Source: Octopus vulgaris
Lineage: Eukaryota
Direction of reading: 5' to 3'
Assembly (NCBI GenBank): GCA_951406725.2
Contig: OX597840.1
Location: forward strand, 19,158,001-19,222,000
Length of the DNA stretch: 64,000 nt
Shown here: positions 443-26,829 of the stretch, piece after piece
How the letters are laid out: the number at the start of each line of letters is the position of its first letter
Numbering within the stretch: position 1 is the first letter of the stretch
Program-made: the position numbers and the translations under genes
The notes under the pieces: model-generated
Told to the model about the DNA's origin: nothing
The model's database searches: none
The model's input: the letters and a program-made list of their open reading frames with translations, nothing else

Positions 443-559
443 GGAGAGAGAGGGAAAGAGAAAGAAGGAAGATCCCCCTTCCTATTAACCATTTATTTAT
501 TTATTTAGTCATTTACCATTGTATTGGAATGGATTTAAGGATGGTGACCTTTTAAAAAA

Positions 560-1960
560 AGATTTCATCCAACAAATACCTCCCGCTGTCACAGGAGGTA
601 CTATACTTATATAACCCATACTTTAGGCCTAGAAGCAATCATACACTGGGTAGAGAAACATAGAAGACGGATAAATGAACGCTTCAAGGCTGACTTCATC
701 ACCAAGGCCACACTCCTAGCACTAGAAGAAAATAACTTTAGTTTCGACAATAAGACATATCGACAGATAAAAAGGCACGGCTACGGGGATGCGGTTTGCG
801 CTCCCTCATACGCAAAGTTAGTTGTGGGATACTTGGAAGAAACACTTTATGAGGAAGTAGAAAAACTTTTGATCAGGAGCACAAAAAATACATCATTAGA
901 AAATGGAAACACTTCCTTGATGATTGTCTCATGTTCTGGGACAGATCGCATGAAGATCTAACTATATTTAACAATATGCTGAACACATTTCACCCATCCA
1001 TCAAATTCACGACAGAATCCAGTTGCAATGAATTACCATTCCTGGAGATCCACTTAAAAATACAGAACTCCACAGTCACAACAGACATATTTTACAAAAC
1101 AACTGACACACACCGATATTTAAATTTCTATTCTTGCCTTCCATCATACATCAAAAGAAACACCCCATATAGCATGGTAAAACGCATCTGTGCTATAGCG
1201 ACTGACCTCAAAATACGTGAAATCCAACTCAACGAACTCAAAAGCTTCCTCACCATTCAGAAATACCCCTTAGGATTAATTAATGAGGGAATTAAAAAGA
1301 CGATGAAACTGACCATCACCCAACTACGGACACTTAAGGAAAAAGTTAATGAAAACACGATTCCGTTCGTTAACACACACAGTCCTGGAATAACCAACAT
1401 CTTTCACACCATAAAATCGAACCAGTCTATACCCCTACAAAGCCCCAAAATGAAAAATCTGATTGAAAAAATACCTTACGGAATAGTAGATACCAACCAA
1501 AAAAATCTTAAAATACACCTCACAAGGGCAGAATTCAAATCAGAGAACGAATCGGAATTCTTAGTAAAAGAATGAAGAAATAGGAGACTTGGAACATGCG
1601 ACAACAACATCTTTAAATACTTAGAAAGTGGTTCCCACATAAAATTCAAGAGCGGACCCCTTTTCAAAATAAATGCAGATATCAACTGCAAAAACGCAAA
1701 ACCTCATATACTGCATTAACTGCCTAAACTGCAAAGAAAATTACATTGGTGAAACAAATAATTTCCTCTGCCAACGTGCAAGAATCCACAGGCAACATAT
1801 CCGACAAGAGGAATTACGCAAGATTCCATTAAGTAAGCACCTGGAGATATTCAGCAATGGAAGATTCAAAAATTTTCCTTTTACAAGTGTGTTCGGGACT
1901 ATCCGCAAAACCGAAAAGCAATGGAACTACATTTCATCAAAAAATTCTCTCCAGAACTGA
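560..1960 (+). pseudogene. PLE reverse transcriptase + GIY-YIG endonuclease, frameshifted
   Basis: KWKHFLDDCL at 901-930 in frame with 931..1575 (HPSIKFTTE..LPFLE..TDIFYKTTDTHRYLNF, typical PLE RT/thumb). 1673..1960 reads NLIYCINCLNCKENYIGET..R..H (GIY-YIG). Confidence 0.9.
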
Positions 1961-14789: not shown

Positions 14790-15880
14790 GTAGCGCTGAA
14801 ATGATTGGAGCTTACACTCCGACGTCTTGGTGAAGGACCAAGTCTGCGGGTTGATGTTTGTAAGAGAAATCTTAGTAGAACAGTCCACAACTCTTCTACT
14901 TTACAGTAGGTATGTAGATGACATTAATATCACAGTTAAGACTAACTCTATTAACGGTAATGTAGAATCTGAGAGGAACGTAACGGAGAGCATTCAGCAA
15001 GTAGCTATCTCCATCCACCAAAGTATCAAGGCAACTATAGATTACCCCACGAGGCACCCCAACAATAGACTCCCCGTCCATGATACTGAACTTTGGTTCG
15101 TGACTGTGAAGAACAGAGTGCAGCTCCTCCACTCCCATTACATGAAACCCATAGCTTTGAAATATGTTGTTCACAAGAACACAGCTTTGTTACACAACAT
15201 GAAAATTAACATATTGATAGCAGATTTAGGGTAACGAACAACGTGTCCCCACAATGCAAACCCTATGAAATTAAGAAGCGTGTACAGAACTTCATGTACC
15301 GCATGAAATCCTCTGGATATAATCAGAAAGATAGGGTTCGAGTATACAGGGTTGCTAGAAAGAAGTTAGATAACATTATATATAATGATACCAGTGGTAC
15401 GTGCCCTAGATATAGAAGTAAAGACTTGAATAGAATACAAAGAGCTTTTGAGAAAGCAAACAGGGAAAGCACGTGGTATAAAACCGGCAAATATCAAGGA
15501 GTGATGTTAGTAGAGGCCACAACCCATAGAGAACAAGCCTGTAGATTTAGGAAAGCTCTGAAGGAGACCAAACTCAACATTAAGATTTTTGAAAAGCCAG
15601 GGATCTCCATCAGATCACAACTATATAGGACGTACTCCTTTGAGAATACCATATGCACCAATGATAAATGCACGGCATTAACTGTAAAACTAGAAACGTA
15701 GTCTACAGCATAAGTTGCACATAATGTGCTTGTAAGGGGAGACATCTAGGAGCATTGTGGAAAGACTAAATGACCGTTTGAGACAATATGACGACAAAAA
15801 TAACAGTTTTCTATACTCTACGTTGCCAAGGACCAACATGGAGGCAGCCTGGGTCAACTTGACATACGCATTTCACTTCA
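14790..15880 (+). pseudogene. Second, divergent Penelope-like element (RT + Cys linker + GIY-YIG), decayed
   Basis: LYSRYVDDINI; IHQSIKATIDYP..RLPVHD; HYMKP; MKSSGY. Then INCKTRNVVYSISCT*CACKGETSRSIVERL at about 15677-15770. Confidence 0.85.
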
Positions 15881-24258: not shown

Positions 24259-24326
<68 letters not shown>

Positions 24327-24452
24327 ACAACAATTGAGGAACGGCTACAATAGGCCGTTCGACCCACTAGAAATAGCAGCCAGGGCTCCAACCGCAAATA
24401 GTAGTAATTCCGAAATCAAAGGAAAAATTAAAAAAACATTTACCCTGTTCTT

Positions 24453-24563
24453 CTTTAGACAATGCATTGTTTCGGCGTTTTTTAATGGTAAACCAGCCTG
24501 ATTAAATTAAATTAAACTTAATCAAGTCAACCTTCCAAAAGGCCAACGCGCTCATCAGTAAAG
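24453..24563 (-). ncRNA. Type I hammerhead ribozyme, intact core
   Basis: cttta-CTGATGA-gcgcgtt...aacgcc-GAAA-caatgcattg-TC-taaag. Perfect stem I, palindromic stem III acaatgcattgt, GUC site. Confidence 0.85.
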
Positions 24564-24753
24564 GAGCCAGAAGGGACAGAAATTACACGAGGCAGCTACC
24601 TTCATGCCTAGGTAATATCTGACCTAAAATTTTCAAAATCATCGTACTCGCGCCAACTTGTCGGCAGCAAATATAAACTGCCGATTCAATTTCGGAATTA
24701 ATCAGAAAATTATCAATTAATCAATTGACAGTAATTTCTGTCCCTTCTGGCTC

Positions 24754-24874
24754 CTTTAATGATGAGCGCGTTGGCCTTTTGGAAGATTGACTTGATTAAG
24801 TTTAATTTAATTTAATTTAATTTAATCAGGCTGGTTTACCATTAAAAAACGCCGAAACAATGCATTGTCTAAAG
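24754..24874 (+). ncRNA. Mirror hammerhead copy with C3->A core substitution
   Basis: cttta-ATGATGA-gcgcgtt...aacgcc-GAAA-caatgcattg-TC-taaag. Confidence 0.75.
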
Positions 24875-25093
24875 AAGAACAGGGTAAATGTTTTTTTAAT
24901 TTTTCCTTTGATTTCGGAATTACTACTATTTGCGGTTGGAGCCCTGGCTGCTATTTCTAGTGGGCCGAACGGCCTATTGTAGCCGTTTCTCAATTGTTGT
25001 TGAATTTATTCATAGTCTCTGACTATTTCCTCTTTCTCACTAGACCGCTGGTGGCAAAATAATTTCTATTGAATTTTTTGCTACCCTAAATTG

Positions 25094-25650: not shown

Positions 25651-25900
25651 ATAAATGAAAGAATGGAGTCGAACGGAGATGTTAACAAAATTCCTTTACT
25701 TTCGACACATGTTTCGAAGACAGCATATTTTCATTCCGAAGAAAGGGAGCCTCTCTCGACAACAAGACAAACAAAAATTCGATGATTGCCTACAATGCAC
25801 CCTTTATTCCTTCAGAATGAAAATATGCTGTCTTCGAAACATGTGCCGAGAGTAAAGGAATTTTGTTAACATCTCCGTTCGACTCCATTCTTTCATTTAT
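25651..25900. mobile_element. Small fold-back cassette (about 90-bp arms) with hammerhead remnant
   Basis: 25651-25741 vs 25810-25900 reverse complement. Confidence 0.85.
25751..25852 (+). ncRNA. Hammerhead variant (UCGACAA core), degenerate
   Basis: ctctc-TCGACAA-caagaca...tgtcttc-GAAA-catgtg-CC-gagag. Stem I 5 bp, stem II aagaca/tgtctt; the mirror arm retains GUC (gaaacatgtgTC). Confidence 0.6.
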
Positions 25901-26046
25901 ATGTATGTATGTATATATATATATATATATATCAATAATATAAGGGTAAATAATTATTAATTTTAAAATTAATAATTATTACCGAGTAGTTTCGGTATGG
26001 AAATCTAACCATTATCGGTAGGGACTTTTACAAAAAGTTCTTTATA

Positions 26047-26080
<34 letters not shown>

Positions 26081-26246
26081 TTGTTATCGCCATATTAATA
26101 TGGCATTCTTATAGATATAAGAATAATCGCTGCCGCTGGTCAGCTCCATGAGGCCACCGCCATCAAGATAGCTATTGATACACGATCTGTATCCATTATA
26201 ACCTTCGAACAAGGGAGGTCAGCCGCTTCACACTGCCAGTCCGACA

Positions 26247-26288
26247 GCTACAGACGCGTTTCGGGGTATTGCCCCTTGTCAATGTAGC
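26247..26288 (-). ncRNA. Compact type I hammerhead ribozyme with U3-A8 covariation
   Basis: gctaca-TTGACAA-gggg caata cccc-GAAA-cgcg-TC-tgtagc. 6-bp stem I, 4-bp stem II, palindromic acgcgt stem III. Confidence 0.88.
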
Positions 26289-26829
26289 GCAGTCAGACCC
26301 GCAGGTGTCGCCACTGACGTCTCTGTTCGAAGGTTTCTATGGACTTACACGCGCGCGCACACACACACGTGCATCACAGCATTGACGGTATTGCTGCTAC
26401 CCCACTGGCCAGGTGAGCAGGCCAACATTCTCCACTGGTCAGGGTTACCCATTTACTGCTGAGTGAAGGAGAGCCACGGGAAAGGAAGTGTTTTGCTTAA
26501 CAACACAATGCAACACACTCACCACTAAGCCACGCGCCTTCATACACACACACACATACACACACACACACACACACACATTCGCACACATACACATGTA
26601 TATAGACTGAACCACAAAAGAAACGTCGCGCACATACTAAGTAGAAATTAGTTTATTAGCAAACTGCCATAGCGTTGATTGAAAAGTGCTAATTAAGAAA
26701 CCGTTCTTTCCTAATGATAAAACGCCATTTCAAGAAACATGTTTGCCGTCACATGATGTCACGTGAATACGGAATGTCCTGGATCCAAAGTGATGAACTC
26801 AATATCTCGTGTGACCACCGTTAGCATTG

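What the first reader, a model, noticed from the sequence alone, without database searches (positions are those of the whole stretch)
26190..26348. Compact hammerhead with compensatory U3-A8 core at the tip of a long rod-like hairpin
The minus strand reads gctaca-UUGACAA-gggg/caata/cccc-GAAA-cgcg-UC-tgtagc. Both partners of the conserved C3-G8 pair are changed to U3-A8. Stem I extends (gtctgac/gtcggac) and the outer flanks also pair (aaccttcgaaca/tgttcgaaggtt), giving an approximately 150-nt GC-rich rod in very AT-rich DNA. The acgcgt stem III is too short to fold alone, which suggests dimer cleavage. Predicted cut is between 26253 and 26252.
Basis: partly seen in the sequence, partly recalled or inferred. 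Interest (0 to 1): 0.8.

Follow-up and report, generated by a model that had tools for sequence, protein, structure and literature searches.

The report
Hammerhead retrozyme copy with variant core
This hairpin is part of one truncated copy of a young, non-coding 363-base jumping repeat present well over a thousand times in the genome, whose RNA is predicted to cut itself with an already described variant of the hammerhead ribozyme and is likely copied back into DNA by Penelope-type retrotransposon enzymes, so it is a good new example of a known kind of element (a retrozyme).

Summary
The hammerhead-shaped motif, U3-A8 core, rod and predicted cut (26253/26252, minus strand) are as described. 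They are not a lone RNA. They belong to a 5'-truncated copy (26076-26340) of a 360-364-nt non-coding repeat with at least 1,458 motif matches genome-wide, in tandem and inverted arrays. Across subfamilies, stems I and II covary, position 7 varies, and stem III stays palindromic while changing sequence, which supports dimer cleavage. Insertions end at two fixed points in TA repeats and start at scattered points, the Penelope-like footprint; many exceed one unit. A modest excess of copies starting at the cut hints at cleavage in vivo. U3-A8 is published (natural, active in vitro, found in Schistosoma Penelope elements), as are retrozymes. No C3-G8 relative was found, so the 'compensation' is relative to the consensus only. 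Cleavage, circles and the mobilising enzyme are untested. A Tx1-like LINE inserts at one site in the rod. The scan found this family and relatives before, in this and other genomes.

The parts
26076..26340 (-). 5'-truncated solo copy of the ~363-nt retrozyme unit (unit positions 277 through the cut to +177), subfamily A
   Evidence: BLAST to other copies 97-99.7%; 265 nt, 99.2% to a tandem monomer
26200..26335 (-). Rod: extension of hammerhead stem I; the closing stem that brings the monomer's two ends together
26283..26288 (-). Hammerhead stem I, 5' strand (6 bp)
26289..26291 (-). Internal loop I, 5' side, ending in a pyrimidine (counterpart of the Schistosoma extrahelical C)
   Evidence: one search counts; PMC2632901 passages
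26276..26282 (-). Core positions 3-9, UUGACAA (U3-A8 variant; position 7 is C, A or U in the family)
26263..26275 (-). Stem II (4 bp) with loop II CAAUA
26253..26262 (-). GAAA core, palindromic stem III hexamer (26259-26254) and C17; predicted cut between 26253 and 26252
26246..26252 (-). Stem I 3' strand, and the unpaired U of internal loop I (26246)
26076..26199 (-). Branched AT-rich part of the unit up to the first fixed 3' end (about +177 after the cut)
26043..26075 (.). (TA)n target microsatellite abutting the element's 3' end
26300..26316 (-). Position in the rod's 5' arm that, in copies of other subfamilies, is the insertion site of a Tx1-like LINE (empty here)

Best explanation
This is a 5'-truncated solo insertion of a young ~363-nt non-coding repeat family (a non-LTR retrozyme), whose RNA is predicted to self-cleave, likely as a dimer, and is likely copied into TA repeats by the enzyme of a Penelope-like element. 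Shown: the family, its unit length, tandem and inverted arrays, fixed 3' ends in TA/TAA repeats, scattered 5' ends, and conservation of the hammerhead structure. Inferred steps: (1) a tandem array is transcribed; (2) two hammerheads pair through their palindromic stem III and cut, helped by loop I/loop II contacts, with U3-A8 standing in for C3-G8; (3) the released monomer folds back on the rod so that its ends meet and are ligated to a circle; (4) a Penelope-type reverse transcriptase/GIY-YIG protein nicks a TA repeat and primes at one of two internal sites (about +177 or +237), copying through the re-formed hammerhead, often for more than one round. A monomeric circle would be protected from re-cutting because stem III needs a partner. 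The window copy stopped after 265 nt and is probably a dead end.
For: Copies: 322, 1,164 and 1,458 pattern matches against 0, 0 and 2 in reversed-pattern controls; 333 more for older subfamilies. 21 tandem units of 360-364 nt, GC 40-43%, two groups 83-89% alike; each folds with its ends adjacent. Structure on 30 hand-picked rows: 92.5% of cells paired; 22 cells with two-sided change, against 4.8 in shuffles (0 of 500). Stem I position A-U/G-U/G-C; stem II base G-C/G-U/A-U; rod pair G-C to A-U. In 248 distinct copies: U3 in 247, A8 in 247, position 7 variable; stem III ACGCGU 182, ACAUGU 31, ACGU 9, ACGUCGU 9; the internal-loop U in 247. These stem III motifs give no hairpin but self-duplexes of -1.7 to -7.5 kcal/mol. 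Ends: 173 of 206 segments from 140 loci end at +165-185 (86) or +228-245 (87); 153 of the 173 abut TA/TAA repeats; 80 of 173 exceed one unit. This matches the tandem/inverted/tail layout and microsatellite targeting described for Penelope-like elements (PMC8557442 passages). Three young Penelope-like families with long open frames exist in the genome. Copies starting at the cut: 13 (subfamily B) against 1 and 5 at two control positions, p about 0.002, post hoc.
Against: No cleavage, transcript or circle is shown. No autonomous element sharing sequence with the unit was found among three families examined. Covariation comes from a few subfamily-level events among related rows: pairs with a two-sided change 6 against 3.0 in shuffles (14 of 500), further pair types no better than shuffles (464 of 500), and one row was mis-cut. 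Loci were chosen by patterns containing the hammerhead, which inflates core conservation and the share of segments crossing the cut. More-than-unit copies could come from uncleaved multimeric transcripts rather than circles. In this subfamily the minimum-energy fold pairs core bases 5-7 with the cleavage triplet; opening the core costs 1.5 kcal/mol, and forcing the lone 15.1-16.1 pair costs 7.1. In Xenopus only 1 of 9 retrozyme dimers cleaved in vitro (bioRxiv 10.64898/2026.07.22.740005). The excess of starts at the cut could reflect stalling or template switching at the rod tip.
Confidence: 0.82

Rival explanations
1. The units are terminal repeats (pseudo-LTRs) shed by an autonomous Penelope-like element that carries this hammerhead; the solo and tandem copies are truncation products of its long RNA, not an independent retrozyme.
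For: [quoted passage not shown] U3-A8 hammerheads are known from their terminal repeats (PMC4209133). Retrozymes are reported to derive from such repeats.
Against: Wherever read, the sequence upstream of a unit is another unit, an inverted piece or host DNA. The four widely spaced pairs checked held microsatellite/host DNA (L031, L051) or Tx1-like sequence (L032, L141), not a Penelope frame. Three Penelope-like families share no sequence with the unit. Arrays of pure units reach about 2 kb.
Confidence: 0.08
2. The element spreads as a Penelope passenger from uncleaved multimeric transcripts; the hammerhead is a weak or silent relic and no circle is made.
For: Most insertions read through the cut site (139 of 173, biased by selection). 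Penelope hammerheads cleave poorly in vitro. 8 of 9 Xenopus elements did not cleave.
Against: Stems, palindrome and loop-contact residues are kept across subfamilies 15-18% apart while position 7 drifts. There is an excess of starts at the cut. No G17 was seen among 12 copies with a changed position 17 (small sample).
Confidence: 0.12
3. The hammerhead cleaves efficiently as a monomer, with the long rod and loop contacts making up for the short stem III.
For: Canonical helix I (6 bp) and helix II (4 bp), with Schistosoma-type contact residues. Coral and mussel retrozyme monomers cleave at about 0.8 and 0.1 per minute (PMC7229834).
Against: Stem III offers one or two base pairs as a monomer, and in some subfamilies is only a 4-nt palindrome. 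Its self-complementarity is kept through sequence change. Axolotl hammerheads with short helix III need dimers.
Confidence: 0.2
4. It is a satellite or foldback DNA element spread at the DNA level, and the hammerhead likeness is incidental.
For: Tandem arrays and strong hairpins occur in such repeats. Rfam does not score it as a hammerhead.
Against: Fixed 3' ends with scattered 5' ends and inversions are a reverse-transcription footprint. G-U intermediates indicate strand-specific RNA pairing; the opposite strand folds less well over a slightly shorter stretch (z -7.2). The motif is not produced by chance.
Confidence: 0.02

Closest known systems
Metazoan non-LTR retrozymes (Cervera and de la Pena 2020, PMC7229834; passages and section 14 read, supplements not seen)
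   Same: Non-coding tandem units in the 170-400 nt range (mussel 350-390 bp), one type I hammerhead per unit, GC under 45-50%, self-paired monomer, thousands of copies.
   Different: U3-A8 core; loop-contact residues kept, whereas the mussel family lacks most of them; dispersed short arrays with inversions and two fixed ends in TA repeats. Expression and circles are shown there but not here.
Hammerheads of Penelope-like elements, including the U3-A8 family of Schistosoma mansoni (Cervera and de la Pena 2014, PMC4209133; parts 1-2 of 4 read, supplements not seen)
   Same: U3-A8 core (about 1,300 hits there), palindromic short helix III, proposed dimer cleavage and circular template for more-than-unit reverse transcription.
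   Different: Those are minimal motifs with long helix II, an extra base after position 9 and a poorly defined loop 1, in repeats flanking a coding frame. This one has canonical helix sizes and loop contacts, and no coding frame.
Natural U3-A8 hammerheads (Perreault et al. 2011, PMC3088659; passages read)
   Same: The same core covariation, reported as natural and previously shown active in vitro.
   Different: Different organisms and contexts; no retroelement analysis seen in the passages read.
Schistosoma Sm-alpha tertiary-stabilised type I hammerhead (as described in PMC2632901; passages read)
   Same: Internal loop I with a 5' U and a 3' pyrimidine facing an apical loop II that begins with C and ends in A; 4 of 248 copies have the same CAAAUA loop II.
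   Different: U3-A8 core; loop II is mostly 5 nt; stem I continues into a rod of about 48 pairs.
Retrozymes as non-autonomous Penelope derivatives (Li, Clavereau, Pollet 2026, bioRxiv 10.64898/2026.07.22.740005; parts 1-3 of 5 read, supplements closed)
   Same: Same proposed mobilisation; monomers, dimers and multimers coexist.
   Different: They rely on co-occurrence and terminal-repeat homology, mainly in vertebrates. Here there is an insertion-end footprint but no homologous autonomous partner.

Membership tests
Type I hammerhead ribozyme | Three-way junction with conserved core and a 3-8 base pair | tested here: met
   U3-A8 in 246 of 248 copies; G5, A6, A9, GAAA and U16.1 as in consensus (partly fixed by the search patterns)
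Type I hammerhead ribozyme | Stems I and II supported by covariation | tested here: met
   Two-sided changes in stems I and II and the rod; few independent events
Type I hammerhead ribozyme | Cleavable triplet (position 17 not G) | tested here: met
   C 238, U 5, A 5, G 0 of 248
Type I hammerhead ribozyme | Loop I-loop II contact residues | tested here: met
   Loop-I U 247 of 248; 5'-side triplet ending in a pyrimidine in at least 237; loop II C...A in at least 240; the contact itself is not shown
Type I hammerhead ribozyme | Scores against an Rfam hammerhead model | tested here: not met
   No match at E up to 10; likely due to the variant core and very short stem III
Type I hammerhead ribozyme | Site-specific self-cleavage | not testable with these tools
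   Only indirect: excess of insertions starting at the predicted cut
Non-LTR retrozyme | Tandem units of 150-450 bp with one type I hammerhead each | tested here: met
   21 units of 360-364 nt
Non-LTR retrozyme | Non-coding, no LTRs, GC below 50% | tested here: met
   No frame of 100 aa or more overlaps 26076-26340; GC 40-43%; no LTR layout in the loci read
Non-LTR retrozyme | Dispersed high copy number with signs of retrotransposition | tested here: met
Non-LTR retrozyme | Expressed as linear and circular monomeric RNA | tested here: inconclusive
   No holder on record as RNA; contigs cannot show ends, strand or circles
Autonomous Penelope-like element | RT plus GIY-YIG open frame between terminal repeats | tested here: not met
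   None linked to any copy read
Penelope-mobilised non-autonomous element | Tandem/inverted insertions, 5' truncation, tail at one end, microsatellite targets | tested here: met
   compared with PMC8557442; the tail here is about 60 nt rather than 30-40
Penelope-mobilised non-autonomous element | 3' end shared with an autonomous partner | tested here: inconclusive
   No match to three young families; other families not surveyed

The most novel reading that the evidence does not exclude
A three-tier parasite chain is active in this genome. A Penelope-type enzyme rolls around a circular, self-cleaved 363-nt RNA from two internal priming sites without any shared terminal sequence; occasionally it copies the linear cleaved form, leaving insertions that start exactly at the ribozyme cut. 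A Tx1-like LINE has in turn specialised on one site in the ribozyme's rod. The genome would then hold a direct record of in-vivo hammerhead cleavage and rolling-circle reverse transcription, plus a retrotransposon that targets a ribozyme element, which I did not find in print.
Probability: 0.35. Interest if true: 0.62.

Novelty: new member of a known kind. Interest (0 to 1): 0.4.

Why it matters
Retrozymes, U3-A8 cores and dimer cleavage are all published, so the motif itself is not new. The family is useful as a test system. It is young (copies up to 100% identical) and has natural variants of stem III that keep the palindrome. Its insertion ends bear on two open points: which enzyme copies animal retrozymes, and whether the template is a circle. 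Standard descriptors and Rfam miss it, so counts of hammerheads in such genomes are likely too low. A paper search for retrozyme with cephalopod and hammerhead returned only PMC8557442, so a family in what looks like an octopus-type genome may be unreported; the library lacks most subscription journals.

Tried and rejected
Rfam at gathering and E-value thresholds: no hammerhead match. C3-G8 relatives: none among the first 100 listed of 322 matches with free positions 3 and 8, none among all 86 canonical-core ACGCGU matches, and two single-change copies among 248. Autonomous partner: four widely spaced pairs opened, none held a Penelope frame; three young Penelope-like families showed no match to the unit beyond 17-18-nt chance-level hits; Pfam did not recognise four decayed frames in the window or the third family's protein. 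Expression: no RNA holder on record; contigs of four guessed-RNA runs cover much of the unit, mostly with subfamily B letters, but cannot show transcription, ends or circles. Variants in the other organisms that hold the sequence were not examined, so conservation beyond this genome is open. Whether the Tx1-like element inserts only into this family was not counted. The idea that an excess of A at position 17 (8 A, 4 U, 0 G) marks a ligation scar was dropped, since transversions were as common at a control position. The outermost helix of the fold was rejected as involving host flank. Lunse et al. (PMC5785218) is not held; seen only as a reference title and a summary sentence in PMC6765202.

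Full report
Observation. It forms a type I hammerhead: a 6-bp stem I, core UUGACAA, a 4-bp stem II with loop CAAUA, GAAA, the hexamer ACGCGU, C17 at 26253 and a predicted cut at 26253/26252. The region folds as a rod with z -9.5. A descriptor for such a motif finds only this site in the window and none in 100 resampled windows. Rfam does not recognise it.

It is one copy of a large family. A DNA search of the window's genome (2.8 Gb, microsatellite-rich, octopus-like by inference) gave 1,576 candidates; 40 were scored and gave 47 matches, 41 of them near full length at 97-100% identity. Patterns gave 322, 1,164 and 1,458 matches, against 0, 0 and 2 in controls. A motif seen in the loose ends led to 333 matches for older subfamilies. 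Consecutive hammerheads define 21 units of 360-364 nt, GC 40-43%, in two groups 83-89% alike; the older subfamilies align at about 80-88%. The window holds a single 265-nt piece, 26340 to 26076, ending in a TA repeat. No frame of 100 aa or more overlaps it. The monomer between two cuts folds back so that the rod joins its two ends, and the rest forms short hairpins.

The structure is under selection. On 30 rows that I picked across subfamilies (one mis-cut), 92.5% of cells pair. 22 cells change on both sides, against 4.8 in shuffles. Stem I shows A-U, G-U and G-C at one position, and the base of stem II shows G-C, G-U and A-U. Against this: the rows are related, the number of covarying pairs is only 6 against 3.0, and further pair types do not exceed shuffles. 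Among 248 distinct copies, U3 and A8 each occur in 247, position 7 is A, C or U, and position 17 is never G. Stem III is ACGCGU (182), ACAUGU (31), ACGU (9) or ACGUCGU (9). None of these folds as a hairpin; all form self-duplexes. The loci were found by patterns that fix part of the core, so conservation is overstated; one search left positions 3 and 8 free, and all 100 listed matches were U3-A8. No C3-G8 member was found. The residues that make the loop I-loop II contact in the Schistosoma hammerhead (PMC2632901, passages) are kept: the loop I U in 247 of 248, a pyrimidine at the end of the opposite strand, and a loop II that starts with C and ends in A. So this is a canonical rather than a minimal hammerhead.

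How it moves. Of 206 segments from 140 loci, 173 end at +165-185 or +228-245 after the cut, and 153 of these abut TA or TAA repeats; of the other 33 ends, 7 do. The 5' starts are scattered, and 80 of 173 exceed one unit. Inverted partners are common. This matches the layout described for Penelope-like elements (PMC8557442, passages). Because priming is internal and copying passes through the cut, the usual template must be a circle or an uncleaved multimer; these data do not separate the two. A genome-wide test found 31 places where the sequence after the cut lacks C17. Of 30 fetched, 17 begin there, 1 is an inversion through stem I, and 12 keep the hammerhead with A or U at 17 (classified by eye, overriding the script's label in two cases). 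Two control positions gave 2 of 20 and 5 of 12 starts. For subfamily B this is 13 against 1 and 5, p about 0.002. This is a post hoc, modest hint that cleaved linear RNA is sometimes the template; stalling at the rod tip is an alternative.

The enzyme is not identified. Two young families with intact 775-aa frames (RT and GIY-YIG by Pfam for one of them) and a third with a frame of up to 1,151 aa exist in the genome. None shares sequence with the unit. An earlier scan note claimed an end match to a partner; I could not confirm it.

A passenger on the passenger. In L032 a full-length LINE (515-aa and 1,140-aa frames; APE, RT and zf-RVT by Pfam; 'Tx1-like' is my label from recalled architecture) sits in the rod's 5' arm with a duplication of about 17 bp. 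The same tail-to-site junction occurs 34 times, control 0. It involves two related tails and includes tandem LINE arrays separated by the duplicated site. The pattern could not match the window's subfamily, and off-target insertions were not counted.

Comparison with what is known. Non-LTR retrozymes are tandem 170-400-nt units with type I hammerheads, expressed as circles in coral, mussel and axolotl, with dimer-dependent cleavage where helix III is short (PMC7229834; passages and section 14). U3-A8 is a natural, active variant (PMC3088659, passages) and occurs about 1,300 times in Schistosoma, linked to Penelope-like elements (PMC4209133, parts 1-2 of 4). A 2026 preprint argues that retrozymes are non-autonomous Penelope derivatives, and found only 1 of 9 active in vitro (parts 1-3 of 5; supplements closed and may list related families). 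Searches for retrozyme with cephalopod and hammerhead, hammerhead with Penelope and octopus and retrozyme with Tx1 found no description of this family or of a LINE targeting a retrozyme. The scan's own notes hold the same reading for this and other genomes; they are not independent evidence.

Verdict. The feature is real and well formed, and it is a new member of a known kind. Cleavage, circularisation and the partner enzyme remain untested. Interest 0.4.

Noticed in passing
L032:2033-7003 and 34 genomic junctions; L141, L217-L219: Two related Tx1-like LINE families insert at one site in the 5' arm of the retrozyme rod, with a duplication of about 16-18 bp, and form tandem arrays there.
   Followed up: partly
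window 25651-25900: Near-perfect foldback with arms of about 100 bp (-153.7 kcal/mol as RNA) containing a GAAACAUGU motif; possibly an inverted remnant of another Penelope-like terminus or a MITE. No complete hammerhead could be read.
   Followed up: partly
window 24313-25014: Inverted repeat with 213-nt arms, 96% complementary, 276 nt apart, beside TA repeats; looks like a MITE or another inverted Penelope-type insertion.
   Followed up: no
window 548-1575 and 14800-15701: Decayed reverse-transcriptase frames of two Penelope-like lineages; both have young relatives with long open frames elsewhere in the genome.
   Followed up: partly
L173 (G000:C1:27839500-27849400): Young Penelope-like family in 4,271-bp tandems with an upstream 454-aa frame overlapping the 775-aa RT/GIY-YIG frame; no canonical hammerhead found in its 3' region by my pattern.
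   Followed up: partly
L205 (G000:C6:62871500-62878500): [quoted passage not shown]
   Followed up: no
window 26368-26530: SINE-like repeat directly upstream of the retrozyme copy on the minus strand (recognised from recall only, no call).
   Followed up: no
one search list, e.g. G000:C1:210063315: A further repeat family with a canonical CUGAAGA core, a weak stem II and the same ACGCGU palindrome (about 30 of 86 listed matches).
   Followed up: no
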